From Emiliania huxleyi CCMP1516 (taxonomy: Eukaryota): 64,000 bases of DNA. A program made the position numbers and the translations under genes. The notes under the pieces were generated by a model, which was given only the letters and a program-made list of their open reading frames with translations, was not told the DNA's origin and did no database searches. Of the stretch, positions 502-61,383 are shown piece by piece; the stretch's first letter is position 1; each line of letters begins with the position of its first letter. Location: assembly GCF_000372725.1 (NCBI RefSeq), contig NW_005201327.1:77022-141021 (forward strand), written 5' to 3'.

Positions 502-546
502 CCCCAAAGAGCCGGAACCCAAACTTGGAGGATTTGGAGTCCAAAC

Positions 547-29260: not shown

Positions 29261-29357
29261 AAGCATCCATGCTCTGATGTGTCGCTTGGGTCGCCTCTGC
29301 TGCTGTGTCTCTGTCTTAGCCAGATATCGAGAGCGCGCGACGACAACCAACCCCTTA

Positions 29358-37025: not shown

Positions 37026-38413
37026 ATGCGGTGCTCGAGCAGCTCGCGATCTGACTTGAACAGCCTCCCGGACACGCCCGAATCGCCCAAGAGGCTGCCA
37101 GAGGACCCTGAGCCGCCCAGCTCCGGCGTGGGAGTCCCGCCCGAGCAGCTTCATGGCGGCGACGGTGCTGTCGTGCAGCACGAAGGAACGCAGCGAACGG
37201 GACGCGTGAGCACAGGCCGCTCGGGCAAGTCCAAGCGCGTGCTGCGCGCGGAGAGGCGGCTGCGCGCCGGAGCTGGGACGCCGCCCGACGGCGACCGGCT
37301 CGGCCGCGTCTCTCCCGGCGGCTTGTCGCCCGGCCGCCTCAGTGGCCGAGGGAGCCCCGCGTCGCCGATCGAGTCGGCGCTCGGCGAAGTCGGCAGGCTG
37401 TGGGGCGTCCTCCGCCAAGAGCTGGCACGCGAGACGCCGTACGTGCCGGGCCTCTCGATCCACACGCCCAAGCGGCGGTGGCAGCTGACCGCCGCTTCGC
37501 TCACCCTGCTCGGCGCCGCGAAGGCGGGCGACGCGCTGCGCATACGGCGGCTGCTCCGCAGGTCACACACACACACGCACACACACACACACACCGCTCA
37601 CCCACGCGCACTGGGCCTTGCACTTTGAATGCCGTGGGGCTCCTGTCGTCAGACGTGGAGACGCGAGGGTCGCCCCCCCTTGCCCCACCACCTCGTGTGT
37701 GTGGAGAAGTTTAAATTTACCTTACCTTACCTGCTCTGCAGGCACGGCGCGAAGCTGCCGACGGTCTTCGAGGTCGTCACCGAGGCGGTGGAGATGCAGC
37801 GGAGGCAGTCCTTCGCGCTGCGGCGGGGCGAGGCGTCGGTCGGCGGTGGAGGTGCGGTGACAGTGCCCCCGCGCGGCGCCATGAGCGAGCCGCTGGCACG
37901 TCGCGCCGTGCCGCCGCCGCCGCCGGCGGCAGGTGCGGCGGCAAGGGCGGCGGCAAGGGCGGCGGAAGGGGCGGCGGCAGGGGCGGCGGCAGGGGCGGCG
38001 GAAGGGGCGGCGGAAGGGGCGTCGGAGGAGGCTGCCGGCACTTCCGATCTTAGCACCGGGCTGAGCGCGCCGGCAGAGGCCGTGGTCATCTCTCCCGGCA
38101 CCGCAGTCCCCCGGCCGCGCCCATATCTCCCCGGATCTCCCCAGATCTCGCCATGTGCCTCGCCACACACCTTGGGGCCAGATCTCGCCGTCCCTCCCGC
38201 AGGCTCGGAGCTTCTCCTCTCCCCCTCCTCTCCTCCCCCTGCCCCCCCCCCCCTCTCTCTCCTCTCCCCCCCCCACCTCAACCTCCTCGCCCTACTCCCC
38301 CCCCAGGCGCAGCGCCGGCGGTCGAGCCGCCCGTCAGCGCGGGCCCGTGGCGCGATCGACCGTGGTCCTCGCCTCCGGGCTGGATCGAGGCTCTCTCTCT
38401 CTCTCTGACTCTC

Positions 38414-38505
<92 letters not shown>

Positions 38506-40561
38506 CCCTCCGATCTCGAGAAGCGGAGATCGCATTCTAGCTCGACTCCAACCAGCGCTCGAGAGGGCACGTATTTGGATGCAGTCCGCCGTATTCCTGC
38601 GGTGTTCGTTGTCCTCGTGTGCCCCTCGTCCTCACGCGGTGCTCCGAGTAGTACTCTGCACGACCACTGCCCCTCCCCGCCCCGAGGCTGGCGTATCCAC
38701 ACAAACACACAACCCCGGACCCAAGACGCACAAGCAAGCACAGACCGTCGGGAAGGGAGAGACAGCGGCGGCAGTCAGAAGCCAGCGCTGGGTCCCAGGA
38801 AGGCGAATGCGAGGACGGCATCTAGTGCGAGCTCTAGCTAGTGAGCTCACCATTCCCCACGCAGGCAGCCGATGCCGAGGCGGGGTGGACGGCGCTGATG
38901 TGGGCCTGCTGGCTGGGGCACCGCGCCGTGGTGGAGGCGCGCGCCGTCTTTTTTCTTTTTTCTAGGCGGAGCTCGACCACTCGCACGGCACGACTGCAGC
39001 AACATGTCTTTTGCTGTGTAGGTGCTGCTGCGCGCCGGGGCGAGCGTCGCCACCCGCTCGGCGCAGGGAGGGAACACGGCGCTCATGTGCGCGTCGCGTC
39101 GAGGCGCCGTCGACCCCCCCCCCCTGCTCCCCTTGCTCCCCCCCTGCTCCCCTTGCTCCCCCCCTGCTCCCCCCTGCTCCCCCCCCTGCTCCCCCCTGCT
39201 CCCCCCTTGCCCCACCGCCTTGCGTGTGTGTGGAGAAGTGCACCTTCCCTTCCCTCGCCTTAGGCCACGCCGAGATTGTCCGCTTGCTGCTCGAGGCGGG
39301 CGCGGAGCCGGACGCGCGAAGCCACGACGGCGTGAGTGGGGTCGTCCTCGCTGCCGAGCACGGGCATCTCGAGGTCATGGCGAGATCTGGCGAGACGGAG
39401 AGGCATGGCGCGATCTGGCGAGAGGGAGGACGATCGGCCGTAAATCCCGAGGCGAGGCACGAGAGTCGTCGGTTGAGCTAGGGAGCCTGGCGAGGGACGC
39501 CACCAGTCCTCGACAGGCTCTGGTACTCCACACTGTCCGTGCGCCGGGCGTCGCACTCTGACTTTGAATGTGCACTGGGGGGTGTTGCCTGCCTGCTCGC
39601 CTGTCTGGGAGTGGAGCCTTGCGAGAAGGCCCTTTGATCCCCCCACCCCCTCGAGTGTGTGTGGAGGACGTTACCTCACCAGCCGAATCACCAGCCGAAT
39701 CGCCACAGGTGGTGCGCCTCCTCGTCTCCGCCGGCGCGGAGGCGCTGTGCTGCTGCTCGGACGGCAACCTCGGGGAATCTCGGGGAATCTCGGGGAATCT
39801 CGGGGAATCTCGGGGAATAGGCGCTCTGCTGCTGCTCGGACGGCAGCACCGCGCTGCACCTCGCAAGCCGCGGCGGTCACCCGCAGGTCGTGTCGTATCT
39901 CCTCGGCGCGGGGTGCGCCGTCAACGCGACCGACCACGCGGGCCTCACGCCGCTGCTATGCGCGGCGGCGGCGCTGGAGACGGACGCGCACGTCGACGTG
40001 ATCCTGCGGCTGCTGCAGGAGGGCGCCGACCCCGACGCCAAGAGGCTCGACGACGACCTGTGCGCGCTGGAGCTGGTCGAGCTGGCGTCGCCCTTGACGC
40101 TGCTGCAGCACCGCACCCCGTCCGGCGAGGCGGGCGGCGGTGGGGTGGGCGGCGAGGCGGGCGGCAGCGAGAGCGGCGGTGGGGCGGGCGGTGAGGCGGG
40201 CGGCGGCGAGGAGGGCGGCGGTGGGGCGGGCGGCGGTGGGGCGGGCGGCGGTGGGGCGGGCGGCGGCGCGGGCGGCAAAGAGCAGGGCGGCGAGGCGGGA
40301 GGTGGAGTCGGCGGCGGCGGCGGGCAGGCGATCGCGACGACGAGCGGCGATGCGGCGAGTGAAGCGGCACGTGAAGCGGCAGGTGAAGCGGCAAGCCGGA
40401 GGGTCAGGGCCGCGGCCAGCACTCGCCGGCAGCAGCGGGCGGCGAGGGTTGCGCTCGCGCTGGTCGCGGCGAGGAGCGCGCGCGCCGACCTCGGCGAGGG
40501 GCTGTGCAACTCCATCGCCCGCGCGCACGTCGCGGCATTGGGGCATTGTTTGTTGAGCTGA
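37026..40561 (+). CDS. Ankyrin-repeat protein, many introns
   Basis: Ankyrin segments GWTALMWACWLGH, GNTALMCASRR|GHAEIVRLLLEAGA, AAEHGHLE, GLTPLLCAA. Introns include 37562-37741 and 39742-39820. Confidence 0.7.
37562..37741 (+). mobile_element. Family A element forming an entire GT-AG intron
   Basis: (CA)n, core and CTTAC tail between direct repeats CTGCTC(C/T)GCAGG; removal gives LLRRHGAKLP in frame. Confidence 0.8.
38391..38500. repeat. (CT)n microsatellite
   Basis: Direct reading of the sequence. Confidence 0.95.
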
Positions 40562-41956
40562 TCCATTGGGGCATTGTTTGTGTTGAGCTGATCGACGCCT
40601 GATAGTTTTGACACGCACGCATGTCATGGTGGAGGGAGGGTCAGGCGTGCCTTAGCTCTACAGTAAGCTACATGCGTACAGCCGCGTGGATGCCCTCTCT
40701 GTCTACGTTATGGGCTGACGGTGACGCGTCACACAGACAATAACATGACGACACGTGTACGGCGCTAGGGAACCGCGTCGCCCCCGGAGCCGGTCGTCGA
40801 CCCCCTTATCCTTTGGCCGCATTGGCGTTGGGTAAAGCGTAGCGTTTAAGATTAGGTGAGTGTGTGAGACGGTTGGTTAGAGCGCGAGGATTGATGTCCA
40901 TTAGAGACAGAAGACTACGTCATGCAAAAAGTGTGGGAAAAAAACCAAAAACGCTGTCACGGCCAGCTCGGCACTATCTACTCAAAAAAAAGTGACGTAG
41001 AGCACCCACTTTTTAAGCGTTCCGCGCACACACAAGGTCCGCCTGCGTGCGCCGCCAGCTTCTCAGGGCCATCGCGCGAAAAACGACGGAGGAGATGCAT
41101 CCTAGCTGTCGCCACCGAAGGCGACTCGACGTCGCTGAGATCGGAGTTCGGAGATCAAGCTCTGACAGGTCACACGTCGCTCCTTTGACGCCGACGTGAC
41201 TCACCCGTGCAGAGCACATCAGGACACGGTCTCGACGGGCACTCTGCCAGAACTAAGACGAGACCGCGACCGACGGCGGGCCGTGCTTGCTGGCGAGCAT
41301 CCGCGCTGCTGACGACGTGCTAGAGACTGACCTTCAGAGCGACGAGATTCTCGCATGCTTTGAGGAGGCGCTCGGCGAACGGCAGCCAGAGATGGGAACG
41401 GATGCTGCAGCAGGGCGATAGGCGAATCCATCCCGCCTCGCAAGACGAGACTCACACGTGCGGCGCGCTCGCCGCAGGTCGGCGTGCGGAGCGTCGGGCA
41501 TCGGCTCGCCATCCCGGGAGCTTGCCTTGAGCGGCCCGGGCTGGGACCGACCGCGGGAGCTGCCTGCCTGCACCAACCAACCAACGGACATGAGCGATCC
41601 GCAGTTGTCGAAGCGCCCCCCCCCCCCCCCTGCTAGTGTCTGTCGTCGTTCCTACCCCTGATCCTACCCCACGGCTCACGCTAATGTCTGTCATCTCCAG
41701 CGCACAAAAGAATTTAAACAAAACAACTCTCTCTCACAGCACACAGGCTCGACACAGGTGCGAACTGGCGCGTGCAAAAGAAAAATCTAAACAAGCCGCA
41801 GGAAACCGGCGCTCAACCAACACCCCCTTGTTACACCCCACCACCCGAAGAGGCTGCTGGCGCGTGCGTGCGAGGCGTCCGAGCTGCAGCAGGTGAGGAA
41901 GCTGTCCGCGTCTCTGCTCGGCACGCAGTGGGCCGGGATCGAGTCGCCCCCCGCCA

Positions 41957-43736: not shown

Positions 43737-45437
43737 GAGGGGGAATTGATTGATGGGAAGGCGAAACACAGTCCGACCAACGACTGGGACACCAACGCGT
43801 TATGGGTAACATGAGCTGAGAGAAACTTCGCACTGAGCGAGTAAATTCTTTTCTCGCACGACACTGGGCACGGGACTGGCGCGCACTGGCACTAACACAG
43901 GTACACCAGTGTCGTGCGAGTAAGTTTCATGTAAAAATTTCGGGCGCCCCATCCGGAGCGCGCCGCAAGAGCGACTACGCGACCGAGAGGGCGAGAACGA
44001 GATTGTGATGGACGAGAGCGAGTGTCGGACCATGCGAGAGCGGGGAACGAGCACGACGTGGAGGGCGAGGGACCTGGCGTGCCGCCTGCACAAGTGGCAC
44101 CACTTCACAGCGGCGGCAGCGACGGACGCATCGCTAAAGAAGACTCGAGACGGAAGGCTAGCATCATTCGGGGGATGGGAGGGCGCAATCGTCGTCAGTA
44201 CTGCTACGCATATGCACGGAGGCCCATATGCATACGCATCACATTACGCCCTCTCGGGAATACGTAAACTCGGTGCGTGTACGTCACTTGCCAGTCCAAA
44301 TGCGTCGCATTACGCAGCCCGTCGAACGCCTCCCCCTTCAAAAATAAATAGAAAACGTCAATACATACACGTAATCATCGCGTGCGTGACGGTGCGATGG
44401 CCCTGTGGTTGCCTCATACGTACCACGTGTCACGTATACGGATTATGGATCTCCGCCGCATCAATAATCAAAGTACGGGAAGGGAAGAGGAAGGGACTCG
44501 AGGCGGAGAGGAAGGAACGAGTAGCCTCGGAAACAGAGCGCCTGAGAGAGGGACAGAAGGAAAGGTAGGAAGGAGAGGATACGAGAAATGGAGTGGGCGG
44601 CGAATGCGTGTATTTGCTGGCGACGGAGGCGACATCGACAACGTGATGCCGAGGAGAAGGAAAGGGAAGAGGCAGAGAGACGCCTCGAAGCGGGGAGAGG
44701 CAGAACGACGAGAGCGATGGGGATGACACTCAAAACGACCCACTGCGAGCTCGAAGGCGAAGGCCAGCGCAGGAAACGCGGTGACAGGCCCGCCCTCCAC
44801 CCACCTCCCCGCGCGGGGTCGCTCCGGGGCGACCCGGCCGCCCTCTGACCGCACTGCCATACTACTATCCTTCGACAGTATTCAATCTATCAGCCCAGCC
44901 CGAGCGGGTCCCTCGCCGCCCGCGCCGCCCGCGTGCGCTGCCGCTTGGCGTTGGAGCGCTGCGTGCGCCACTCGGCGCTGCCGGCGTGCGCGTTGCAGTG
45001 CGCCGGCGCCCTCGGCTCGCCGCCCCGCCAGTGGCGGCACTCGGACACGGGCGCGTCGCACGCGAAGCACACTGTGTACGCGCGCGTGCATCGTGGAGAG
45101 TGGCCGCGCCTGTTTGAATCTACAACAAGTATATGTAGTACACAGCAGTCCGCTCAGTCACGGAGTCAGCGTCCGGAATAGACAACACACACTGTGGAGC
45201 GCACGCAGACACATGGAGGGGGCTCCGGACGGACAGACTTGGCTCTTGGGTAACGCACGCGCGCTTGACAATCCTCAACCCACGCCCCGCGACAGTACGT
45301 GCTCGTCTACAGACGTTCATGCGACCGGTGGGAGTACGATAATGGACTCCTCGGCGCCGCCTCCTCCGTTTCGAGCTGTTAGCCGAGGTCATACTAGCGC
45401 TTCTCCCCCACCCCCTCCTCAAGAGCATACACGTCGA

Positions 45438-47390: not shown

Positions 47391-47995
47391 GTTGAATAAA
47401 TAAATACATAAAAACGGTCAAACTCTGAGACGAGATGGGATTTAGGGACATGTGTCCCCGCCCTGCACGATCTTGGTGTGAGGGATCTTCAAATTGTCCC
47501 CTCACCCCTGGTCACTACGGTTTACCCGACACTAGAAGAGCAGCAAGAGTTGGGGCTGCGGCTACGGCTGCGGCTGCGGGAGGGGCTATGGTCGCGGGAG
47601 AGCCGCTGCGCCGCGTGGGCGCGCCTACACCGCGCTTGCTCCGCTCGCCACCTCTCGCAAAGGTCCAAAGTCATAGCCATCACCTCCTCCGGCAAGTCCT
47701 TTTCGCCTATCTCGCCGTCCCTCCATGCCTGGTAGAGCTCGTCGGCATAGCCATACTGCATCACAGCCTGCTGCACTGCGTCGTGCACAACCCCTGCCAC
47801 CCTATCCCGCGCCTCAGCGTCGGAAAATTCGAGCTCGGAGTCATACCCGGAAGCAGGCGCAGACGGCCGCGGCGATTTGGCAGGCGGCGAGGTGGGGGAG
47901 GGAGAGCGCGGCGGTGCGCGCTCGGTGCTCCCGCTGGTGCCAGAAGGGCCAGCGCCCAATGCGCTCAGCCTGTTCTTGTCCACCACCTTGGGAGA
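47391..47995 (-). mobile_element. Family B retro-like insertion with a 10-bp TSD
   Basis: AGTGGTGGAT at 47381-47390 and 47996-48005; (TATT)n tail on the minus strand; an uninterrupted homologous site exists at ~19095-19134. Confidence 0.65.
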
Positions 47996-48096
47996 AGTGG
48001 TGGATTTTGGGGCGCTGCGCACCCCCTATTTTAACCGCGCCTGGCAGGCGTGTTCGTCCAAGTTCATGACTCGGCTCCGACCACGCAGCGTGCCGT

Positions 48097-50064
48097 CTAA
48101 GTTCGAGCCCGGCCGTCTCGCTCCGGCCGGTGCTGCTGCGCCGGTGGCGCGCGGCGCGGCCACATGCTGCCGCCGTCCGCCTGGACCACGGAGATGGTGA
48201 CAGTGGCGCTGACGTTGGCGTCGGTCTCGACGATGGCGGTGGTGCCGATGGGTCGGCGGGCGACGTGGCGGACGAAGCTGCTCTCGTCGTCGGTGACGAG
48301 CGTGTAGGAGAGGCGGTCGATCTCCGGCAGCAGCAGCTCGTCGGCAAAGTCGAACGCCCACCGCCGCGCGCCGACGAGGTGGAGCGTCCTCGACGCGCGC
48401 GTCGCCTTGAGGCGCGGAGGCTGCAGCGCCGGCCACGCCGCGTCCTGCACGCTGCTCGCCGAGTCGTCGATGAGTGTGCGCCGGCCGCCAACGAACGAGC
48501 CGCTGAGCTTCACCGACGCGTAGCCGCCCGTGCTCTTTGCGGCGAAGAGATTGTCGCGGATGATCACGTTGTCGAGCGACGCCCCGCCGTCGCCCTCGGC
48601 CTGCTCCGCGCCCTCCGCCGCCGCGCGCAGCTCGACGTGCGCGTTGAGGAAGAAGGAGGACTCGACCGTGAGGCTCGAAGGCGCGTGCACGATCAGGTGG
48701 TTGAAGTCCAGGTAGCAGCTGCGCAGCCGCGTCTGCGGAGAGAGGTCTGAGGTCAAGTAAACTTCTACTTCACACACCGTAAGTGGGTGGTGAGGCAGGG
48801 GCCGGGCAGCCCTCGCATCTCCACACACCCGGACAGGCAGGAGCAGGCCCGGCATTCAAAGTGCGAGGCCCGGTGCACGTGGGTGAGCAACCTGCGGAGA
48901 GAAGACGGAGCCGCCGACGACGATGCCGCCCGCGAGCGCCTGCGCGCGCGCCAGACAACGCGTCAGACAACGCGGTAGGGCGGGGAGCGCGCGACCGCGG
49001 ACGCGGCAGCCCGCACATTATTCCACACGTGCACTCCGCTCAGCGTGTTGCAGCAGCCGTCGACCGTCACGCCCGTCTGCGTGTACGCGAACACGATGAC
49101 GTCGGAAAGCACGTTGTCGATCGAGTCGACGACAACGCCCACCGACGTCGAGTTGAGCCTCGCGACGATCACCGACGGCAGCAGCGCCTCCGACCAGAAG
49201 TACTCCGCCGCCCACACCTGCGTTATGAGCCCCTCGTGCCCGCCCGCCAGGCGCAGGCCGAAGCGGCGGAAGCCATAGAAAAAGGCGTCGGCCACGGTGG
49301 CGCCCATCGTGCACGCCACGAGCAGGCCGCCCGCAGCGACGTGCGCCGCGTCAAAGTAGACCTCCCGCACGTTGACAAACTAGAGAGGAGTCAACTCTAC
49401 TGGTCCAGAGGGCACCGCCGTTCATGGCTACGAATGGTTAGTCTGGCACCTCATTGCAGCTCTTCTGGCCATCGGGGAGCCCGCGCGCGTCGAACGGATG
49501 GCAGTCGACACTGCCAACGGTGAGGAGCACACCGTTGCGGGGGAACGACGAGGAGGCGCGCAGCGTGCCGCGCATGATGTAGAAGTTCCCAAAGAAGGCT
49601 GGGACGAGAAGCGGCTGCGAAATGAGGAACTCGCCCTCGAGCTCCAGCGTCGCGCCGCCGAGGTCTGTGATGTTTGATGCCAGTTTCGAGGCGGCAGGTT
49701 TGAGACTACCCACCGACAGGAGCGCGACCAACGCTGCCTGCAGCGCTCTCGTCGAGTCGAGCCTGCCTGTTGGGTCCGCTCCAAAGTCCACCGGTCGAAA
49801 GTTGCGACCCGATCTTGGCTGAAGAAGCGTTGGCGCGTGAGAGGAGCGCACGCCTGGCACCGGCGCCACGGCGAGCGCCGTCGCGTGGAGTCGCTGCGCC
49901 GCGATGAGTGTGGTCGGAGGCCTGTGGGCTGCAAGCGCCACTGCTGAGGCAGAGGTGTGCGACGCGACGCTCGGCAGGAAGAGGGTGTAGCAAAACACGA
50001 GCCACAAATTAAAGAGAGCCGATGGGGCGGCCTCGTCAGAGAGGGGCCGCGGCCACATGAACAT
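48097..50064 (-). CDS. Pectate_lyase_3 superfamily beta-helix protein (QRT3-like), multi-exon
   Basis: FRPVDFGADPTGRLDSTRALQAAL, ITDLGGATLELEGEFLISQPL, GTLRAS, GHEGLI, TRLRSCYLDF. Confidence 0.75.
48733..48891 (-). mobile_element. Family A element forming an entire GT-AG intron
   Basis: Flanked by the 11-bp repeat TCTCTCCGCAG (minus strand); removal gives GSVFSPQ|TRLRSCY. Confidence 0.75.
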
Positions 50065-50306
50065 GAGCAGAGTGGGCTGCGAAGGGCGAAGGCGGCGGCG
50101 AACAAGCGCTCCAAAACCACTGAAGTGCAAGAAAAAAAATAAAAGCTCGGGGGCAATCTCCGCTGGTCCTGCCCCCGTGCCGCCGGGTGCAACTTTGTCC
50201 TATACATGCGCTCCCCGCTCCCGTTCCCCTGTGTCCCTGATCGTCCTTACAAGATCCTGCTCGCGCAGGTGGGGACCCTGTCGCTTCTCCCAGCTCCCAC
50301 CCCTTG

Positions 50307-50382
50307 AGACGCGAGGGTTGCCCCCCCTTGCCCCACCACCTCGTGTGTGTGGAGAAGTTTACCTTACCTTACCTTACCTTAC
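50307..50382 (+). mobile_element. 5'-truncated family A copy with a 13-bp TSD, nested in a family B repeat (50168-50426)
   Basis: CTCCCACCCCTTG at 50294-50306 and 50383-50395; clean (ACCTT)n tail. Confidence 0.85.
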
Positions 50383-50439
50383 CTCCCACCCCTTGTTTGG
50401 TGTGTCCGTTTTATTTATTTATTTATGGTCCTGTTTTCT

Positions 50440-51807
50440 TCAGTGTATGTAGCTCTTGTCATCGCCTTCCACCGTGAGTAATACCGGCACGCCGGCCGCA
50501 TATGGCGGGCTCGTCTTCGCGTCCTCGCCGTCCGCATCGGGATCGCAGAACATGAACAAAGGCACGCCGCGCCGCGTCGCCATCGCGAGCACCGACTGCG
50601 TCGCGTCGCCATACGCCTCGCCCACGCTGCGCCCCTTGGCGAGGGCGGCGAAGAAGGCGCGCGCGAGCGTGCGCGACGCCGCGTCGGCCGCCTTGGTCCG
50701 CCAGCAGACGACGTGCGGCACGCCGCGCTGCCGGAGCTGCGCGCCGAGGCTGGCCGTGTCGCAGCCGTTGAGGAAGACGAGCTGCAGGCCGTGCGAGGCG
50801 AGCATGGCCGCGAGCGTCGTCGGCAGCGTCAGCTCGAGCTGCCCCGTCGCCGTGTTGGTGAAGCCGAGCGTGACGGTGCGGCTCGCCTCGCGCGCCTCGC
50901 TCGCGTCCTTCGCCGCCTCGCTCGCGGCCGCCGGCGCGGCGGCGGCGGCGGCGGCGGCGGATCGCACGGGCGGCAGCCGCACGTCGCCATGGCCCGAAAA
51001 GAGGAAGTACTTGTACGCGCCGTGGCCGTCGAGCAGCTCCTGCTTGAGGTCCGTCGGCGAGCCGCCGCGCCGGATGCGCGCCGTCACCTCGTTGGCCACG
51101 TCGATCGCCTCGTCCTTGGCGTGTGGCAGATGCAGGCTCTGCTGCGTCGGGCTGCAGACGAAGATAAGCGCCTCGCGCGGCGCGCCGCCGCCGCTGGTCG
51201 CGCACGAGGCGACGCTCGTCGCGTCGCTCGCCTGACGCGACACGTCGGCGCCGCTCGGCGGCGCGCCGCTCGGCGGCGCGTCGCCACCGAGCGAGAGGCG
51301 GCCGAGGGTGGCGGCCGCGTCGAGCAGCTCCGAGTCGCACACGTGCGCGTCGGCGAGGCACGCGGCGCCGGCGTCCTTGTGCGCGCGCAGAGCCGCGTAC
51401 AGCTGCTTCGCATCCGCGGCGGTCATGAAGAGGACCTTCGTGCCTCGCCGCAGCGCGCCGCGGTGGTATGCATCGAGCAGCTCGACATCGGCGGGCGGCG
51501 CCTTTTGCTGGTGCTCGACGTTCGAGCCGAGCATGAATTTGAGGCACGGCTCGCCGGCACTCGCCGAGTGCGTCACCTCGATGCGCGTCAGCTCGCCCAT
51601 GGGCCACTGCAATTCATGCTTCTTGCGCTTTTTGAGGAGCAGCCGCCCGCTCTCGAAGTTGAGCTCAAGCTTGCAGCCGCGGGGCAGCGTGACCTCGTCC
51701 TTGTTGGGCGAGTCCTCATCCTTGTCGCCGGGGGAGAGACGCGTCGGCGTGACGGAGATCTTGTCGGGCGAGGGCGTTGAGGGCGTTGAGGAGCCCGAGG
51801 CGGGCAT
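50440..51807 (-). CDS. CHAT-domain (caspase-clan) protein
   Basis: YFLFSGHG and LVFLNGCDT His/Cys motifs, GVPHVVCW, FFAALAKG.SV.EA. Confidence 0.8.
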   Translation of the reverse strand: MPASGSSTPSTPSPDKISVTPTRLSPGDKDEDSPNKDEVTLPRGCKLELNFESGRLLLKKRKKHELQWPMGELTRIEVTHSASAGEPCLKFMLGSNVEHQQKAPPADVELLDAYHRGALRRGTKVLFMTAADAKQLYAALRAHKDAGAACLADAHVCDSELLDAAATLGRLSLGGDAPPSGAPPSGADVSRQASDATSVASCATSGGGAPREALIFVCSPTQQSLHLPHAKDEAIDVANEVTARIRRGGSPTDLKQELLDGHGAYKYFLFSGHGDVRLPPVRSAAAAAAAAPAAASEAAKDASEAREASRTVTLGFTNTATGQLELTLPTTLAAMLASHGLQLVFLNGCDTASLGAQLRQRGVPHVVCWRTKAADAASRTLARAFFAALAKGRSVGEAYGDATQSVLAMATRRGVPLFMFCDPDADGEDAKTSPPYAAGVPVLLTVEGDDKSYIH

Positions 51808-51841
51808 GAATCCTCGGTGCAAGGCGCGACACTTTCACACC

Positions 51842-51992
51842 TAAGGTACTCGAGTAAGCCTAGATTTCTCCACACACACAAAGTGGTGGGGCAAGGGGGG
51901 GCGACCCTCGCATCTCCACGCCCGGACACGGGCAGGAGCCCCACGGCATTCAAAGTGCAAGCACTGGCCCGGTGCACGTGGGTGAGCAGCCT
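51842..51992 (-). mobile_element. Family A copy upstream of the CHAT ORF (possible 5' intron)
   Basis: Near-identical to 370-480 in reverse; ends in ...TACCTTAG. Confidence 0.75.
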
Positions 51993-52350
51993 GCCCCTCC
52001 CTCCCGACAAACCAACTCCCGCACACACACAATCGCACTCTGGCCATCGAATGACTCCGAATGACTCACTGTGTGTGCTAAGACAGAATCTCCGCAGACA
52101 GCCAAAACGGGCCCTGCCGCGTTGTTGGTGCCTTCTCAAGTACTAGCAAGCATCCGGGCTTTCACGTGTTCTGTGCTGCCTGGTGACTCACCTCACACCT
52201 GCACGCCCGTGCGGCGCGCCAAGGCGAGGCCGGCGCCTTGCACCCGGCCCGCGGCCGGCTCCGCCTCGCCCCACCACTGACCGCTCTGCGGCTTCTGCGC
52301 GCAGGCATCACCACAACAGAAGTACGTACATGCCGGCCCCGATCGAGGTG

Positions 52351-52731
52351 TAGAGCTGTTTAACGTTGGGAGCTGAACAGTGTTGCTAGTGTTAACAGTA
52401 ACAACAGAACAACAGTGGGGCTCCCCAACAACAGTAGCTAACGTTATGCCGGCTGAACAACAATAAGGAAGGCCTGGCAGTGACCCACGACGTTCTCCAG
52501 CGTCCAGTGCGGGTAATACCCGAAAATACCCGGAAAAGCGGAAAACCCCAGGTATTTTCGGGTTTTACCCGGGTTTTTTGGCATTTTCTGCTTGCTGACC
52601 GCTGAACAACAGTAACAACAGTAACAAACAGTAACAGCATGAGCTGGGGTGAACACTTTGAACAACGTTGAGGATTTCAGCCAACACTAGCGCAACTGTT
52701 AGGCCCAAAGTTAATGTTAAACAGCGCTCTA
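52351..52731. mobile_element. hAT-like MITE
   Basis: TIR TAGAGC..TGTTTAAC / GTTAAACAGCGCTCTA; 8-bp TSD TCGAGGTG at 52343-52350 and 52732-52739; internal AACAG repeats. Confidence 0.85.
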
Positions 52732-52993
52732 TCGAGGTGCAACTGCGGCATCCGGCACAACGCACAAGCTGACGCTGCGCCGCACGACCCGGAGAGGTGT
52801 CCGGAGGGGAGTAAGGTGTATGCACACGCGCGTTTCAGCTGTAGTCTCCGCGCATTTATTGAGACGCCACATCGACACGCTAAACACAGCTCGAAAGGTA
52901 TGCGGCGGTAAACAGGATATTCATGGGACGGCGGACGTTGCGCCCACATTTTTTTGGGCAGTGATCGCGTGGTGGAGCGCGTGTGTCGTCGCG

Positions 52994-53356
52994 CTAAAGC
53001 AGCCTCCCAAACACCGAGGGGCTAGCCGTGTTCGGGTCCACAAACTTGACCAGCTCCACTATGAGCCCGAACGCGAGAGAAAAGAGCACGGACGCGATGA
53101 GGCCACCAGTCGGCGTCTGCACGTTGATGTCGAGACCGAATAGGCTGGTGGGCATGTCGCCGCGGCTGTTTGCGATGGTGGTGTCACCTGGCACGCGTGG
53201 TGGCGTGCGTGGCATAGCATCGCTCGGCTCCTCCACCGACGGCGGCGGCTCCTGCATCACGAGCCTGAGCCGCGTCTGCGTGGAGATCGGCCGAAGCGAG
53301 GCACAGCTGACGGCAGCCGCCGGAGCAGCGCAGAGCACGGCGATCAGCGCTCGCAT
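52994..53356 (-). CDS. Small membrane protein with a signal/transit-like N-terminus
   Basis: MRALIAVLCAAPAAAVSC... and a C-terminal hydrophobic helix GGLIASVLFSLAFGLIVELV. Confidence 0.5.
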   Translation of the reverse strand: MRALIAVLCAAPAAAVSCASLRPISTQTRLRLVMQEPPPSVEEPSDAMPRTPPRVPGDTTIANSRGDMPTSLFGLDINVQTPTGGLIASVLFSLAFGLIVELVKFVDPNTASPSVFGRLL

Positions 53357-54869
53357 TAGGTCGAGGGAGTGCAAGAACAAAGAGGCCAGGGAGCGAGCTG
53401 TTTCCCCTCCCAACTCGTGTGCGCAGCGCGCAAAGAAAAAAAACCCATCGAAGTGCTCCAAGTGATATGCGGTTGCTAACTGCACTCCAAGTGCTCCAAG
53501 TGCTCCAAAACGACTGCTGCGCGGTCATCTCTTCCCCTATCGTGCCATGCATCCGGCCCGCTGGTGCGCTCCATACACCATAGCAGCTCCATTGATAGCT
53601 CCCCGGCCCTGGTGCCTGGATTCCACGGCTGGATGTGTCATGTTAGGGTGCCCACGGGGCCCAAAAAAAGAAAGGAAAAAAGAAATGGGCCACCCCAGAT
53701 CGCAGCACTTCGTGTTGGAGAGTCGAGATATTGAGAGTGTGACTAGGAGGGAGGGACGCTGGGGATTCTCAAAGGTATACCCTTGGAATGGCCGGATCCA
53801 GCCTTAAAAGTACGAGATCGCGCGCGCTTCGCGCACAGCACCGCCTGTTCTCCGCGGCTGTGTGACGCGCGCGTGCCGTGTACCAGCAGAGTTGGGCGCG
53901 CGCGGCGCGACGGCGCCCGCGAGGGAAGGCGCGGGTGCAGCGGCCGGCGGCGGCCGTACCGCCCGCCAGCCGGCGCAGCAGCGGCCAGCGCAGCGGCCGC
54001 CGGCGCAGCAGCCAGAGCAGCCGGTGCGCGCCTTGCGAGGCGAGTACTGCCGTCCGGCAGCCTTGAGGCGGCCGGGCGGCAGTACTCGTTCGAACTTTGC
54101 GAGCCGTGCGCGCGCCGAGGCGCCCGCGGCGCGCGCCCGCCCGGCTGCCAGTAGGAGGCGGCGCAATATGGCCTATAGTACAGCCCTTGAGGAGAAGGAA
54201 GAGGCTGGCTGGCAGTGCTGTATGCCGCCGAGGGGCAGTTTTGGGGTGCTGTCCCCATCCCACGGGGCTGCAGAAGGCGTCCGCAGCCGGGACAACCCGC
54301 CCCCCCAGCCGAGGCCGGTCGAAGCCCACTTGCAAGCAGCCATGAGGAGTCCTCTTGGTGCTCCTGGCGGCCGTTGGAATGGCGAGCGCGCGCCGATGGG
54401 GGGGGGCGGGGGGTCTTGCTTGCTCCACACCGAGCGCCATCGGTCCGGACCGGTGCTTGCACCGAGGGGTGGCTTGCACAAGGTCTGAGCCGCGGGCGCT
54501 CGGCGCCAAGTGCAGTGTCACGCTCGCGCTGGAGCGGGACACAATGGGGAACCCTCGTTTCCTAGTCACTCGGTCCCGCAACGGAAGAGGCCTCGCTCCT
54601 ATTGGAACACTCCAACATCAGATTTGCCGCGTGCGTCCCTTTTTGAGGCGGAAAGCTGTGTTTCTTTTGGGTCCTGTGGGCACCCTAGTCATGTGAGGAG
54701 TGAGGTTGCCAACTGCAGTCTGCACACTGCACTCCGAAGTGCTCCAAAATTTCCCCCCTGCGCGACCTTGACCCTCCCCCTCTTTTCCATGCCGCCACTA
54801 CTGGCCAGCGGTGCCGTGAGCGGCGACAGGTCCCCACGCCCACCCGACAAGCCCCACGGCGCCGTCCGC

Positions 54870-55892
54870 TCACCACCGCGGGAATTCCCACTGCGTCTCG
54901 CCCGTCTGCTCGTTAAAGAAGTACGTGTCTCCGCTCGCTGGGTCGACGTCCGCGAACCAGCCGGCAGGCAGCGCGGAGCCCGGCTGCGACGCGCCCTCAG
55001 CCACGCACATGAGGACAGCCGCGTCGGGGTCCTGCGCGTCCAGGCTCACCATGTCGCCGTCCTCGAGGTCGTGCCTCTGGCCTGCGGTGTGGATGCGCCG
55101 ACTACAGAGTGTGACTACAGCTCCGGAGAGTGTACTCGTGTGAACACACGGGCTGCGAATACAATGAATACCGCTGAACACGGCCCGGAATACAGCGGAG
55201 TACGTGTCCTCTCCCTGGCGATCGGTTTCAGCTTCTGAAGGCCTCAGCCTCTGAGGAGCGCGTTCCACGAGGCGCCTAACGGGGTCGCGGCCGCTTAGGT
55301 ATGGCCGAGATAGGCCGAGACATGGCCGAGATATGGCCGAGGTATAGGCGAGATATAAAGGCGCGATCTGGCCGAGGAGTAGCCGAGAGTTAGCCGAGAG
55401 ATAAGGCAGCACGCCTGTCCGCGACCGCCACAGAGTGGGCGGCTTGCCGCAGCTGAGTAGACTGGCGGTGCCGTCGCCGAGCACGCTCACCGTGCACTGC
55501 TCTCGAGACACGTGCAGCTTCTGGACCTCCATGTTCCACCGGCTCAGCACGAGCTCCTCGCCGCTCTGCACAAAGTATGGCAGGTCGCGGTAACGGTCGA
55601 GGTGGGTGAAGCCGTCCGGGTGCGTGAAGCCGCTGACACCGGCGACGCCTCGCACACTCCAGGTCACCTGCGCGCTCTGGCCTTGCTGCGCCCACTGAGG
55701 CGGCTCCCACTGGCACTCGCCCGTCTGGTCGCTGCAGAAATACGGCGTACCGTCGAAATCAAAGCTGGTCGTCCAGCCGGCGGGCTGGCCTTGCGTGTAG
55801 CCCTGCTGCTGCGCAACGAGCAATCGCGAACGGCTGAGCGTCGGCGGCCGCAGCACAGCCGCCACGATGCTTGGCAAGAGTGAGCCGATCAT
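54870..55892 (-). CDS. WW - FHA-like - WW protein, multi-exon
   Basis: WW domains AGWTT...PYF...TGECQWEPP and LPAGWF...DTYFFNEQTGETQWEFP; FHA-like HVSREQC...LEDGDMVSL. Confidence 0.7.
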   Translation of the reverse strand: MIGSLLPSIVAAVLRPPTLSRSRLLVAQQQGYTQGQPAGWTTSFDFDGTPYFCSDQTGECQWEPPQWAQQGQSAQVTWSVRGVAGVSGFTHPDGFTHLDRYRDLPYFVQSGEELVLSRWNMEVQKLHVSREQCTVSVLGDGTASLLSCGKPPTLWRSRTGVLPYLSANSRLLLGQIAPLYLAYTSAISRPCLGLSRPYLSGRDPVRRLVERAPQRLRPSEAETDRQGEDTYSAVFRAVFSGIHCIRSPCVHTSTLSGAVVTLCSRRIHTAGQRHDLEDGDMVSLDAQDPDAAVLMCVAEGASQPGSALPAGWFADVDPASGDTYFFNEQTGETQWEFPRW

Positions 55893-56034
55893 GATCCGTC
55901 GAGGTTGGAGAAACGGGAGGCAGATAAGGGCCTCGCCGCCGCCGCAGGAGGTGGAGTGTTGAACGCTGGCGCGGGCGAGATTGCTCGCGGCGGCGAGGGT
56001 CGTGGCGTGCTGTGCTTCGGTTTTGAAAAGAAAA

Positions 56035-56901
56035 TCACGCCGCTTCTTCTCTTGCGCCAGCGACGGCCGCCGCAGCACCAGCAGCAGCCCCAGCAGTGCC
56101 GGCCCCCGCGATGCGGCTTTGCAGCGCCGTGTGGGCCGCGACTGCTCTCACGTGATCGCCTCCCAGCCGGAAGCAGGCAAGGAAGGCCTCTTTGTCCGGC
56201 CCGGCCGGGGGAAGCGTGGGCTTGCCGTGTTCGCTCATCCCCGCGGCGCGGGAGAAAATGCTCAGCGCGTAGCGCGGCTCCCACGCCACGTCAGCCTTTT
56301 GTTGAGCTGGCCCGAGCAGGTCTCTCAGCATCTCGGCATATGAATTCATGAATTTCGAGGCGCAGTCGAAGCACGTGAACATCCTCCCGATCCGTGGTGA
56401 CTGCTTGTCGCTGTACTTGCCTGCATCGCCTTCTGCCCGGCTGCGCTTGATCACCTTTGCCTCCACGCAGCGAGGGGCCGATGGGTTGTCACTGGTGCCA
56501 TAGTCCTTCAACCGCCCATCGAGCTCGCTAGCCGGCATCGCCATCTTCGTGACCAGCAGGCGGCCCTTCGAGGCATCGCCGCATGTCCGGCACTTCGCCG
56601 AGCATGCCGAGCCTGCATACTGGAACGCACACTGCGGGTGATACGCCCCCTCAATAGCAAGCGCGTCTCCCCTGCCGTCAGTCTGCCTGTACCAAGTGTT
56701 GGCACTCGTCCAAGTTGAGAGCTTGGGAACGAAACGGCGCACAATCCTAACATCGTCGGGCCGAAAGGGCAGGCTGCACCACAGGCAGATGCTATTGTCG
56801 CTCCCGCCCGGGTCCACACGAACCAGCTCGTCCGCTGTCCAACCCGCAGGCGCAAGCTGAGGCGCGGGCGCGGGCGCGGGCGACGGCGCGGGCGACGACA
56901 T
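56035..56901 (-). CDS. Hypothetical protein with a PARP-type zinc-finger-like pattern
   Basis: CLWC...DVRI...AYHPQC and SAKCRTC...TCFDC. Confidence 0.45.
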   Translation of the reverse strand: MSSPAPSPAPAPAPQLAPAGWTADELVRVDPGGSDNSICLWCSLPFRPDDVRIVRRFVPKLSTWTSANTWYRQTDGRGDALAIEGAYHPQCAFQYAGSACSAKCRTCGDASKGRLLVTKMAMPASELDGRLKDYGTSDNPSAPRCVEAKVIKRSRAEGDAGKYSDKQSPRIGRMFTCFDCASKFMNSYAEMLRDLLGPAQQKADVAWEPRYALSIFSRAAGMSEHGKPTLPPAGPDKEAFLACFRLGGDHVRAVAAHTALQSRIAGAGTAGAAAGAAAAVAGAREEAA

Positions 56902-56997
56902 ATACGTGTTGGGTCGAAGAGGCGGAGGCGGAGGCCGACGCGGCTGGGCGGCAACGCGAAAGCACGCGCGCCGGACTCGGCACTCTGCAGGTATGGG

Positions 56998-57411
56998 CAG
57001 GTGCGTATTCTTTTTGCTTGGGGCGGACAGAATGCTGAATTCTGGAAAAACCTGACCGGCCCCTGCTGTGCCCCTACCTACCTACCTACCTACCTACCTA
57101 CCCTACTTATGGGAAACTAAAAAAGAAATCACGGTATCGGTGAAGGTGGGGTGCTATTCCAACTAAAGTGATGGCTGGTGGTACTCTCCTGCAATCACAG
57201 TCCTTCCTGTGACATGGCAGGCCACTATCAAGCCCTACAAGCACCAGATCACCCACTTGGGGAGGGTTGACGTCGTGATTTTCGCCGAAAATTTCTTTTT
57301 TTGCTGTGAAAATTCCGGCGTGAAGAGAGGGGAAAACCCGACGGGAGCGCCCAGACCTACCCTACCTACCCCGGCATGCTGTCCGCCCCAAGCAAAAAGA
57401 ATACACACCTG
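56998..57411. mobile_element. MITE with ~40-bp TIRs
   Basis: CAGGTG(C/T)GTATTCTTTTTGCTTGGGGCGGACAG inverted at both ends; GTATGGG duplicated on both flanks. Confidence 0.8.
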
Positions 57412-57593
57412 GTATGGGACCAGTTTTGTCGACATACCGGCTGGCATCCGTGGCGTGGGGCTCGCCTTCGAAAAGTCGGGCATGGCTCTCCCCGCAACTT
57501 TCTCGCTAACACGCGCGCACCACCGAGACTGTGGTGGGCGCGCTGCGGTCGCACGTCTACCTCCGTCTTCATAGTGCCACGACGTGCGGCCTA

Positions 57594-57686
57594 GATTTAG
57601 CACACGCCCCTCTGGTCGCATACACTCATACAATAGTTCTGAACTATTGTATGAGTGTATGCGAGCAGAGGCGCGTGTCCTAAATC
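57594..57686. repeat. Hairpin with 46-bp arms and a 1-nt centre
   Basis: ...CGCATACACTCATACAATAGTTC-T-GAACTATTGTATGAGTGTATGCG... Confidence 0.9.
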
Positions 57687-58275
57687 AGAGATAGGGCTAG
57701 CAGTAGGCAGCTAGCCTGTGAGGAGGGCGTCCATAGACACCTCACTAGACCTCACACACGGTCTCGTCCGTGCCTCGCCGGCCGGAGAGATTGCTAGAGG
57801 TGGAGCAAGCCTGCTCTAACCTAGAGCCTCTACAACAAACTCTACACCACTACAGCAAAATCGCGCTCTACATCGCTCTACATCTGCATCGCTCTGTCCC
57901 GCGCCGAATGTAGAGCTCTACAGCTCTACAGCGCTCCAGAGCGCTCTACATCTCTACAGCTCTACAGCGCTCTACACTCTACATCCTCTACACCCTCCCT
58001 CCCTCAGAGCTCGTGGCGATCGTCGATCCGCGAGCTGCCAAGCTTGTCACAGGCCGGCACTGGATCGAGGACGAATGGCGCCGCGCGGCTGGAGGCAACG
58101 GAGAAAGGCATTGTGGAGCGGCGAGGCGTTAGGAATGTCGAGGCACGGAAAAATCCGACCAACCTGCAAAATCAAGTATTCGTGGGATCCTGAATCTCCG
58201 GCACTTCCTGATGCCGCGGCCTTTCGCGCGTTCCACCAGCCAGTTGCTGGCCCCCCGGGCTGGACTGCTACAAGT

Positions 58276-59483
58276 ATGCTTACCGACATCAGCCTGCTGC
58301 GACACGAGCGCCGCGGTGCGGCTGCGGCGCTGAGTGCGCTGAGTCTCCTCCTCGCCACGGGGTGCGTCCTCCTCCTCCTCTGCCGGCCGCCGCCCACGGC
58401 AGTCGCGGCGCAATCACCGTCGGTGCACAACCGCGCGAAAAAAGATAGCCCACTCCTCTTCTTTGCGATGGGCGACTGGGGAGGTGGGAGCCGGTCCATG
58501 CCCACGACGCGCTCCCAGCTAGCCAACGGCGACGGCATGGCGACAGTTGCCAGCTGGATGGGCGTCACGCCCGCTTTCGTGATGGCTGTCGGAGACAACT
58601 TTTATGAGTGTGGCGTCACCGACGTGGAGTCGCGCCGCTTTGCCTCGACCTTCGAGGCGGCCTTCAGCCAGCCGGCGCTGCAGGTCCCTTGGTACGCCAT
58701 CGCAGGCAACCACGACCACTGCGGCAACGTCTCGGCGCAGCTGGCCTACGCAGCCCAGCGGCGCGGGACGGCGCGCTGGCGATATCCACACTTGTGGTAC
58801 ACGTTCACCGAGCGCGCGCCGTCGGGCGCGACCGTCCAGATCGTCTACATCGACACGGTGGTGCTGGCGGGGATGCCTCAGGAGGAGGGGGAGCCGGGCG
58901 TCGTGGCCGAGCAGTACGCGCCTCACCCGGCGCAGCGGCTCGGCCCGGATCAGCTCGCGTGGCTCGACGCCACACTCGCGTCCTCGACGGCCGACTACCT
59001 GTGGGTCAGCGGTCACTACCCCGTCTTCTCGCCCTGCCAGCACGGCCCGACGCCCGCGCTGCTGAGGGACGTGCTGCCGCTGCTGCGGAGGCATGGCGCC
59101 GCGGGGTTCATCGCGGGGCACGACCACTGTTCGGCGCACTACGAGCAGCACGGGATGGCGTTTGTCCTCTCCGGCGCGGGTCGGGAGTGCTGCTACCACC
59201 CGCGCCACCTCGCCTCGCCCCTCAACCCGGGCCCGCCGCACTTTCGAATGGACCGAGAGCGGCACTATGGCGCGATTGGCGGCTTCGCGTCGTTCAGCGT
59301 CGGAGCCGGCGCCACCACGCTGCGCTATCACTCCGACAACGGCGCACGCAGCTCCCCGGCTCATTCGTCAACACGCCTCATCCCCCCCCTCTCTCTCACG
59401 CCGCGCTCCCTCGCTTAGGCACGGTGCTCTACACCGCCGAGCCCATCCTGCCGCGTCGCCCGGAAGCTGGCACAGAAAGGTGA
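58276..59483 (+). CDS. Purple acid phosphatase (ACP5/TRAP-like metallophosphoesterase)
   Basis: GDWG, GDNFY, GNHD, GHYP, GHDH motifs; N-terminal hydrophobic anchor; GC-AG intron 59342-59418. Confidence 0.92.
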
Positions 59484-59996
59484 ACGCGCGGCCGCACCCC
59501 CGAGCTTGCAGTGGCAAGCGCCGTAGAGCTATAGGACCCAGCTTAGCAGCTGAGAGAGTGACAGTCTGTGTGAGTCGAAAACGGGCATCCAGGAGGGAAC
59601 CGTGCATACCCAGTAGCTCCAGCGTCCATGCTCCACGTCCAGGTCCAGCAGCAGTGTAGTCGCGGAGTCAGTGCTTTTCCGCGGCCGTGAAAACCATGGG
59701 GACAATATGACGTGGCTGGGGTCTACAAGATGATGAGGTGAAGCGGACACGGACAGGCCTCTCTCCCTCGCCCCGCTATCTCATGAACTCATCACACTCG
59801 TGTCGCACGTTCGAGCACACGCTGAGACACGGACAAATGCCTCTTCCCTCTCTCCTCTCTCCTGATCATACAAAGGTGGGTCTCGTCTCGCGACCTACGA
59901 CACGGGCCGCTGGCGCGGTGCGGCTCCGCCCTAGGCTCCGCGCCAAGCCTCGCGCTCCAGAGGGGCGCAAAGCGACCAGCAGCCTCCTCCACTGCG

Positions 59997-60682
59997 CTAC
60001 GAGGTCAAGGTCCAGCGGATGTACCACTCGACGATGTCGAGCGGGAAGAAGATCCAGTTGAGCGGGAAGGGCAGCGAGAAGCCGTACTTGAGCTGCGAGT
60101 AGAAGCCCAGCCCCGCGATCGAGTAGCCCACCACCTCGTCCAGCTTGGTGTCGGCCTCATCCGGGATCGAGGTGTACCCCTTGTTGCGCACCCACGCCAT
60201 CAGCCCGCGCGCAAACATGAGCCCGCCCACCATCGCCAAGTGCGCCGCCGACACAACCTCCTGCAGCTTCCACGCGATGAAGCAGCCGATCGAGCGCGAG
60301 GCGTTCTTGATGACGAACTGTATCCAGTTGTGGTACTCCTTTGGCAGCGTGTGCACCAGGAAGGGCACGGCGACCTTTTGCGCGAGCGGCGCGATCATGC
60401 CCGAGATGGAGATGCCGAGGGCGATCGTCTTTGCGAACTCGATGCGCAGCATGCCTTGCACCGCGATCCACGACGTCATCAGCCCGCCGAGCGCCGCCGA
60501 CAGCTTTTCCGGGTCCTTGACGGCCTGCGCAGAGAGGTAAGGGTAAGGTGCGGTACGGTACACTTCTCCACACGCACGAGGTGGTGGGGCAAGGGCCAGG
60601 CTAGCCCCTCGCGTCTCCACGTCTAGACGACAGGAGCCCCACGGCATTGAAAGTGCAAGGCCCAGTGAGTGTGTGTGTGAGC

Positions 60683-60747
<65 letters not shown>

Positions 60748-61383
60748 CGGCCTGCGCAGAGACAGCTAGCTTGCGCGAGAGGAGCTCGTTCGAGTCGATG
60801 TCGCCCTTCTCGAGGTGCGCCGCGTCGTCGTGCTTCTTGCTGTCGCTCACGTTCGCCGCCCACACCGCCTGCACGTCCTTGCCGATGTCGATCAGCGCCG
60901 CCTCTGTCCTGTCCCAGCCGCAGACCTGGAACGCCTTGACCGCTGAGATGGAGGCGGTGTATCCGCCGCCACAAAAGGTGAGCGCGAGGCCGGCGAGGGT
61001 CTGGATCGCCTCCTTGGGCAGCCTCTGGTACAGCTCGAACCCGAGGTTGCCCAGCTTCAGGTAGAAGGGGCCGATGTAGTCAATCAGCAGCCGTGCGATG
61101 AAGCCGATCGGCTTCGCGAGCGGCTTGAGCGTGTTGGCCACCTGCGGCGATCGGACGTGCGCGTGGCGAGAGCGCCGCTGGCCCGACCCCGCGAGGCGTG
61201 CTGGGTGTGTGGCACGTGTGGCACACAGTGCTCTCGGTGGCACCGCCTCGGCTCTCCCGCCGTCATCTGTGTGAAGGGCGCCTTGGCGAGGACCGGCGGC
61301 TCGCCCTCCGAGGCGCGCATGATCTGAGACGCGAGCGTCTGCTTCTCTACGAAGGCATCGGTCTCCGCCGACTCTTTCGTCAT
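59997..61383 (-). CDS. Multi-pass membrane protein of unknown function, multi-exon
   Basis: Hydrophobic helices across three frames; intron 60525-60751 and another ending near 61142. Confidence 0.7.
60525..60751 (-). mobile_element. Family A element forming an entire GC-AG intron
   Basis: Perfect 18-bp repeat TCTCTGCGCAGGCCGTCA at 60518-60535 and 60745-60762; removal gives LAVSAQ|AVKDPEK. Confidence 0.85.

What the first reader, a model, noticed from the sequence alone, without database searches (positions are those of the whole stretch)
37562..60751. SINE-like retroelement that appears to create spliceosomal introns (candidate retro-type introner)
Seen: one short family occurs at 370, 37562, ~39200, ~39540, 48733, 50307, 51842 and 60525. 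Three copies each make up a whole intron in unrelated genes (37562-37741, 48733-48891, 60525-60751). Each is in sense orientation and bracketed by 11-18 bp direct repeats of exon sequence containing CAG, and removing it restores the reading frame. The element has no TIRs and ends in (CTTAC)n just before the duplicated AG. Known: TSD plus 3' tandem tail plus 5' truncation marks target-primed reverse transcription, CTTAC fits the yUnAy branch-point consensus, and the best-characterised introners are DNA transposons. Inference: the tail supplies the branch point and the TSD supplies the acceptor, so exonic insertions are spliced out seamlessly.
Basis: partly seen in the sequence, partly recalled or inferred. 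Interest (0 to 1): 0.9.

Follow-up and report, generated by a model that had tools for sequence, protein, structure and literature searches.

The report
Retroelement fragments that become new introns
In the alga Emiliania huxleyi, clipped copies of a common repeat, likely a retroelement, fill whole introns in unrelated genes, two of three here are cut cleanly from RNA, and they likely became new introns when they landed in exons.

Summary
Observation confirmed. All 8 copies exist; 37562-37741 (+), 48733-48891 (-) and 60525-60751 (-) are whole introns with 11-18 nt boundary repeats. RNA contigs drop exactly 180 nt and 227 nt at two of them. The host is E. huxleyi. A scan gave 121 more loci. They show a (CCTTA)n tail, ragged 5' ends, variable target duplications (32 of 64 vs 11% by chance) and no terminal inverted repeats: the marks of a non-LTR retroelement. 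It is not a classical SINE: the long form carries a multicopy ~290-aa ORF, and no RT was found. Most copies are non-coding with no strand bias; 6 of 58 two-flank loci are whole introns, all sense. Splice sites come mostly from the duplicated AG|G[T/C/A]. The branch-point role of the tail is only partly supported. Element-free introns here also have boundary repeats, and no empty allele was shown. Non-LTR introners and E. huxleyi introners are already listed (PMC12130899), so this is a well-resolved variant, not a new category.

The parts
37562..37741 (+). Whole GT-AG intron (180 nt) made of a young (CA)n-headed copy plus one copy of a 12-nt duplication (1 mismatch), in an ankyrin-like gene
   Evidence: RNA contig joins 37557 to 37738 (run X9)
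48733..48891 (-). Whole GT-AG intron (159 nt), older diverged copy, 11-nt duplication; donor GT comes from the element at a GCAG microhomology
   Evidence: no bridging RNA contig among the pieces listed; DNA run X5 carries it
60525..60751 (-). Whole GC-AG intron (227 nt), (CA)n-headed copy, 18-nt duplication giving both splice sites; gene of EMIHUDRAFT_467072
   Evidence: RNA contigs of X9 and X11 join 60529 to 60757; junction collinear with 34 of 34 homologues
351..505 (+). Truncated copy just upstream of an ankyrin-repeat gene; no duplication of 7 nt or more found
39104..39263 (+). Likely intron whose 3' end (39201-39263) is a degenerate copy ending CCTTAG
   Evidence: boundaries inferred, not RNA-tested
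39374..39708 (+). Likely intron whose 3' part (39538-39680) is an old copy
   Evidence: boundaries inferred, not RNA-tested
50307..50382 (+). 76-nt non-intron copy with a perfect tail and 13-nt duplication, just past the stop of the CHAT-domain gene, antisense to it
51839..52158 (-). 320-nt copy (subfamily B) with a 7-nt duplication, upstream of the CHAT-domain gene start, sense

Best explanation
The repeat is likely the 3' end of a high-copy non-LTR retroelement of E. huxleyi whose clipped copies likely create new introns when they insert, in sense, into an exon at an AG|G[T/C/A] site. Shown: tail, ragged 5' ends, variable duplications, nine whole-intron copies in unrelated genes, exact removal from RNA at two. 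Inferred steps: (1) RNA of a long element (single ~290-aa ORF, 3' UTR, (CCTTA)n tail) is copied by target-primed reverse transcription, using an RT supplied in trans or lying further upstream; (2) copying stops early, often at a microhomology, leaving about 60-400 nt between duplications of mostly 7-18 nt; (3) if the duplicated exon bases hold AG|G[T/C/A], the left copy gives the donor (or the element's first bases do) and the right copy the acceptor, so splicing restores the exon exactly; (4) the pyrimidine-rich tail serves as the 3' splice region and at first offers several branch-point-like adenosines; (5) E. huxleyi accepts GC and GA donors, which widens the target; (6) other exonic insertions are removed by selection, so only sense, spliceable copies persist in exons. 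Intron-making is a by-product in roughly a tenth of copies, not the element's way of spreading.
For: Exact flanking repeat of 7 nt or more in 32 of 64 two-flank copies vs 11.1% of 4,032 mismatched pairings. Under a stricter rule 30 of 64; 21 of these are not at introns, so the element itself makes the duplication. AG|G in 7 of 9 intron-associated vs 3 of 21 other duplications; 5' microhomology in 13 of 21; 5' ends from 4 to 332 nt upstream of the core in 73 copies. RNA: 2 of 2 RNA runs join across 60525-60751, 1 of 1 across 37562-37741. Six more whole-intron copies among 58 two-flank loci (L015, L019, L029, L049, L055, L079; 70-188 nt; 4 GC, 1 GT, 1 GA donor). L049 splits oligopeptidase A exactly in register with PDB 4ka8; L055 splits a NeuB domain. 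A 10-nt stretch of coding DNA holds AGG[TCA] 9.8% of the time. GC 56% and GA 4% donors in curated E. huxleyi genes (PMC4028052, passages). The ORF upstream of the repeat in L033 has 117 related clusters, 20 named as different E. huxleyi gene models; 12 of 244 related proteins read on into the element's UTR.
Against: No empty allele shown: no DNA run laid (X1, X5 at 60525; X5 at 48733; X3, X4, X5 at 37562) showed a joined form, and L068 carries the same insertion. RNA and DNA runs are from different samples, so splicing vs an empty allele is not formally separated. No RT found (0 of 74 upstream ORFs; ORF has no Pfam, PDB or fold match). Introns without the element also have 16-27 nt boundary repeats. 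4 of 15 intron-associated tails have no yTnAy, and in 4 of 15 the acceptor is not the first AG after the core. Four loci show insertion at the 3' end of an existing intron (L006, L046, L071, L073). 48733 has no RNA or homologue support.
Confidence: 0.8

Rival explanations
1. Introns arise here by a general process (staggered break or tandem duplication of an AG|G site with captured filler), and the retroelement cDNA is one filler among several.
For: Element-free introns with 16-27 nt boundary repeats and 10-mer tandem filler at window 4028-4093, 14938-15137, 39742-39820 and in L034, L051, L057, L071. Break-associated repeats are reported for new Daphnia introns (PMC4202315, abstract only).
Against: The same duplications flank 21 non-intron copies and abut tail and 5' end; lengths 7-14 (one 23) are shorter than the element-free class.
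Confidence: 0.1
2. The element inserted into, or replaced, small introns that already existed, and the old intron sequence was lost.
For: Insertion at existing acceptors is seen (L073 duplicates the acceptor of a kinesin intron; L071, L006, L046). No empty allele seen.
Against: In the whole-intron cases the duplicated bases are exon sequence on both sides and 0-15 nt separate them from the element; no room for an old intron.
Confidence: 0.06
3. An older subfamily (CCTGG variant) is a specialised introner that targets AG|G in exons or spreads from spliced introns.
For: 7 of 10 such loci are intron-associated vs 3 of 95 young-type loci (Fisher p=6e-7, 4 loci unassigned); they share diagnostic bases.
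Against: They are more diverged (mean pairwise 16% vs 4%, inflated by mixing two head types), as expected if only co-opted old copies survive; each sits in its own duplication, unlike direct reverse splicing; young-type copies also form introns (37562, L015, L049).
Confidence: 0.04

Closest known systems
Non-LTR introners of Gozashti et al. 2025 (PMC12130899; section 6 read, supplement file 8 rows seen)
   Same: Non-LTR elements forming whole spliceosomal introns: 5% of classified families, 14 rows, one in a haptophyte (Pavlovales CCMP2436 fam1, 7 copies).
   Different: The rows I saw give classification by homology or pipeline and mostly 2-5 nt duplications (one 11); I saw no row describing a tandem tail, ragged 5' ends and variable duplications together. 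E. huxleyi's three listed families are classed LTR, Unknown, Unknown; no sequences were in the files searched, so overlap with this family is open.
E. huxleyi introners of Gozashti et al. 2022 (PMC9860276; passages and supplement rows)
   Same: Same species already scored as introner-bearing (79 first recovered, 653 in total, 82% in genes).
   Different: No mechanism given in the rows seen; the family here is mostly outside exons. Identity with it not testable.
Polarella glacialis ILE class 14 (bioRxiv 10.1101/2020.10.14.339549; passages)
   Same: Both splice sites recruited from an AGGH target duplication; host accepts GC and GA donors.
   Different: Fixed 4-nt duplication there; variable 5-18 nt with 5' truncation here.
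Micromonas/Aureococcus MITE-type introners (PMC11282704, PMC9860276; passages)
   Same: One splice site co-opted from the duplication; precise removal.
   Different: Those have terminal inverted repeats and fixed ends; neither is present here.
Naiad/Chlamys Penelope-like elements (PMC8557442; passages) and ORF1-only non-autonomous retroposons of the HAL1 type (recalled, no call)
   Same: Frequent 5' truncation, tandem insertions (L048, L096), (CA)n association; single non-RT ORF as in HAL1.
   Different: No RT or GIY-YIG seen, no homology shown; the (CA)n here travels with the element into exons rather than being the target.

Membership tests
Introner | Similar sequences forming whole introns in unrelated genes | tested here: met
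   3 in the window and 6 of 58 two-flank loci
Introner | Precise removal from mRNA | tested here: met
   RNA contigs at 2 of 3 window introns; transcript-derived proteins P0036, P0037, P0039 carry the joined junction; 48733 not covered
Introner | Intron absent in orthologues or other alleles | tested here: inconclusive
   No joined form in DNA runs; P0042, P0043, P0048 retain intron 1 but lack this intron, source DNA or RNA unknown
Introner | Copies concentrated in genes as introns | tested here: not met
   10 of 109 loci intron-associated; the exact-match pattern favours young copies
Non-LTR retroelement (target-primed) | Variable-length target duplications | tested here: met
   32 of 64 vs 11% null; 7-23 nt
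Non-LTR retroelement (target-primed) | Fixed 3' end with tandem tail, ragged 5' ends | tested here: met
Non-LTR retroelement (target-primed) | Reverse transcriptase in the element or a partner sharing the 3' end | tested here: inconclusive
   None in 74 upstream ORFs or among relatives of the ORF; no genome held
SINE | tRNA, 7SL or 5S-derived head | tested here: not met
   No Rfam match near threshold; ARAGORN at a relaxed 80% score hit only the 3' part in 6 of 7 A-type and 0 of 4 B-type copies; the head of the (CA)n type is not known
SINE | Non-coding along its whole length | tested here: not met
   Long A form carries a 283-301 aa multicopy ORF; B linked by 1 protein (P0208); (CA)n type not linked to an ORF
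MITE-type DNA introner | Terminal inverted repeats and fixed duplication length | tested here: not met
Penelope-like (Naiad/Chlamys) | RT with GIY-YIG endonuclease; pseudo-LTR tandems | tested here: inconclusive
   Two tandem loci (L048, L096); no such protein found

The most novel reading that the evidence does not exclude
E. huxleyi is gaining introns on a large scale by target-primed reverse transcription: this ORF-bearing, RT-less retroposon, at least one more repeat family, and perhaps the 10-mer-filled introns with long boundary repeats are all such products. The (CCTTA)n tail would be a two-way splice cassette (branch and pyrimidine tract in sense, tandem AG|GTAAG donors in antisense) kept because it hides insertions from selection.
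Probability: 0.25. Interest if true: 0.85.

Novelty: new variant of a known kind. Interest (0 to 1): 0.62.

Why it matters
How new introns arise is an open question, and most resolved introners are DNA transposons. Here the retro-insertion marks are visible on both intron-forming and ordinary copies of one young family in a culturable, much-sequenced alga. That makes three things testable: whether intron gain needs only an AG|G in the duplicated target plus a tolerant spliceosome, how tails change after capture, and whether gains are still polymorphic. Such introns differ in length and 5' end, which likely hides them from all-against-all intron searches (inference).

Tried and rejected
No whole genome held, so no genome-wide count. 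Pattern scans of viral and prokaryote contigs: 0 hits each. Ab initio intron finder in the window too noisy, discarded; replaced by a repeat-anchored scan that recovered 3 of 3 window introns but only 2 of 6 known locus introns. The coding model was self-trained from six seeds, one of them in the wrong frame and one running past stops; its base pattern looks right (GC3 90%) but calls from it are approximate. An 8-nt repeat first taken as the duplication of the 51842 copy was replaced by the 7-nt one that abuts the homology end. No special RNA fold in the core (z -0.15). ORF structure model poor (pLDDT 49) and no fold match; Atlas gave no usable hit. Tree of 64 cores poorly supported, 3 of 57 branches starred, so no claim on one origin. 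Summed contig depth over the core is thousands of times that of unique DNA but is not a copy number. No RNA piece bridging 48733 was listed (table cut). Earlier scan notes: nothing. Literature searches (listings) showed no description of this family; the library lacks most subscription papers and Repbase, and bioRxiv supplements were not seen.
Full report
Check of the observation. The three introns have the stated ends: 37562-37741 (+, 180 nt, GT-AG), 48733-48891 (-, 159 nt, GT-AG), 60525-60751 (-, 227 nt, GC-AG); removal opens a frame that is otherwise stopped or shifted. Boundary repeats are 12 nt with one mismatch, 11 nt and 18 nt. No terminal inverted repeat in 3 of 3. The window is 66% GC, and the gene around 60525 belongs to a cluster whose named members are Emiliania huxleyi. 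No genome was held.

Splicing. RNA contigs of both RNA runs laid on 47500-61500 join 60529 to 60757, 227 nt out. The one RNA run laid on 36400-38370 joins 37557 to 37738, 180 nt out, keeping the left copy's base at the mismatch, as splicing predicts. The joined protein at 60525 aligns without a gap at the junction to 34 of 34 homologues; 10 of 14 further cluster members carry the exact junction, three of them transcript-derived. For 48733 no bridging RNA piece was listed and no homologue was found. No DNA run showed a joined form at any site, and L068 carries the same insertion as 60525. RNA and DNA came from different samples. Three records keep the gene's first intron yet lack the element intron, and one protein with the junction occurs on contigs up to 6.3 kb; these may be empty alleles or partly spliced RNA, which is common in this alga (PMC4028052, passages).

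What the repeat is. Nearly all end in (CCTTA)n. I dropped four duplicates (L026, L043, L121, and L068 as the same site as 60525) and the two most degenerate window copies; 64 copies had both flanks (58 loci, 6 window). An exact flanking repeat of 7 nt or more occurs in 32 of 64, against 11.1% of 4,032 mismatched pairings. A stricter rule keeps 30 of 64; 21 are not at introns, 7-23 nt long, 13 of them with 5' microhomology; 5' ends lie 4-332 nt upstream of the core in 73 copies. By established knowledge these are the marks of target-primed reverse transcription. Three head types share the 3' 120 nt. No tRNA-like head was found. In L033 the repeat follows a 281-aa ORF with 117 related clusters, 20 named as separate E. 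huxleyi gene models and nine more names; full length is about 283-301 aa; 12 of 244 related proteins read on into the element's UTR. So the long form is a coding repeat of at least 1.2 kb. The ORF has no Pfam, PDB or fold match. No RT was found in 74 of 129 upstream ORFs scanned or among longer relatives.

How often it makes introns. Six of 58 two-flank loci are whole introns of 70-188 nt with duplications of 4-12 exact nt. L049 splits oligopeptidase A with a GA donor, exactly in register with PDB 4ka8; L055 splits NeuB; L015 lies between LRR and kinase domains. These six have no RNA test. Four more loci form the 3' end of an existing intron (FtsH, kinesin, two unnamed). In all, 10 of 109 loci with enough downstream DNA are intron-associated. 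All nine whole-intron copies are sense; of 20 copies with long flanks, 5 lie inside a same-strand gene and 0 inside an opposite-strand gene, while the nearest downstream coding stretch is sense in 22 and antisense in 25, none in 63 (approximate coding model). AG|G is in 7 of 9 intron-associated and 3 of 21 other duplications; 9.8% of 10-nt coding stretches hold AGG[TCA]. This fits filtering by selection, not targeting. An older variant is intron-associated in 7 of 10 loci against 3 of 95 and is more diverged; survival of co-opted copies is my reading.

The tail. CTTAC fits yUnAy (recalled consensus), and 11 of 15 intron-associated copies keep such a motif 5-37 nt from the acceptor. But 4 of 15 have none, and perfect CTTAC units are fewer in intron copies (mean 1.4 vs 2.8), the tail turning into a pyrimidine tract. 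The branch-point claim stays untested. The reverse strand of the tail is a run of AG|GTAAG; two loci have an opposite-strand ORF running into it, but no whole antisense intron was seen.

Control against the reading. Introns without the element also carry 16-27 nt boundary repeats, often around 10-mer tandem filler: window 4028-4093, 14938-15137, 39742-39820; L034, L051, L057, L071. A boundary repeat alone is therefore not diagnostic here; the tie to the element rests on the same repeats flanking its non-intron copies.

Comparison. Gozashti et al. 2025 (PMC12130899; passages, section 6, supplement files 1-12 and 14 searched by term, file 13 not searched) count non-LTR elements as 5% of classified introners, with 14 rows including one haptophyte, and list three E. 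huxleyi families as LTR or Unknown without sequences. Gozashti et al. 2022 (PMC9860276; passages and rows of a cut supplement) already score the species as introner-bearing. Recruiting both sites from an AGGH duplication is described for Polarella class 14 with a fixed 4-nt duplication (bioRxiv 10.1101/2020.10.14.339549, passages). Nine searches showed no description of this family.

Verdict. A real, well-resolved case of a likely retro-inserted element making introns as a minority outcome; not a SINE, not categorically new. Confidence 0.8, interest 0.62. Empty orthologous sites and the RT partner are the missing proofs.

Noticed in passing
window 38521-38864; L073 1-286 and 1022-1192; L046, L095, L045: A second repeat family of about 300 nt ends at the acceptor of introns in unrelated genes (ankyrin-like here, kinesin in L073).
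   Followed up: partly
window 36811-36990 (-), 17424-17515; L028, L039: A third high-copy repeat; loose contig ends suggest (CTAAC)n, (CTAA)n or (CATA)n tails, the first being the textbook branch-point word.
   Followed up: partly
window 4028-4093, 14938-15137, 39742-39820; L034, L051, L057, L071: Element-free introns bracketed by 16-27 nt exon repeats, several filled with 10-mer tandem arrays; they look like very recent gains by another route.
   Followed up: partly
L033 3-845: A ~290-aa ORF of no known family is carried by the long element and is annotated as at least 29 separate hypothetical genes in E. huxleyi; pieces are fused into other gene models.
   Followed up: yes
L042, L078 (opposite strand): An ORF runs into the reversed tail, which reads as tandem canonical donors; possible antisense intron starts.
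   Followed up: partly
L002, L018, L048, L096: Copies nested in or next to other copies, in tandem or inverted.
   Followed up: no
window 6224-7186 and 12627-13589; 31224-32672: Long inverted repeats: 963 nt at 100% with 5.4 kb between (one arm beside a 100-N gap), and 546 nt at 97%.
   Followed up: no
window 28295-29592; 10518-11103: 180-nt tandem array beside (CCCTAA)n telomere-like repeats, with an inverted related array at 10.5-11.1 kb.
   Followed up: no
window 60525 junction; P0038: The reference gene model has one extra residue at this GC-AG junction compared with transcript-derived proteins.
   Followed up: no
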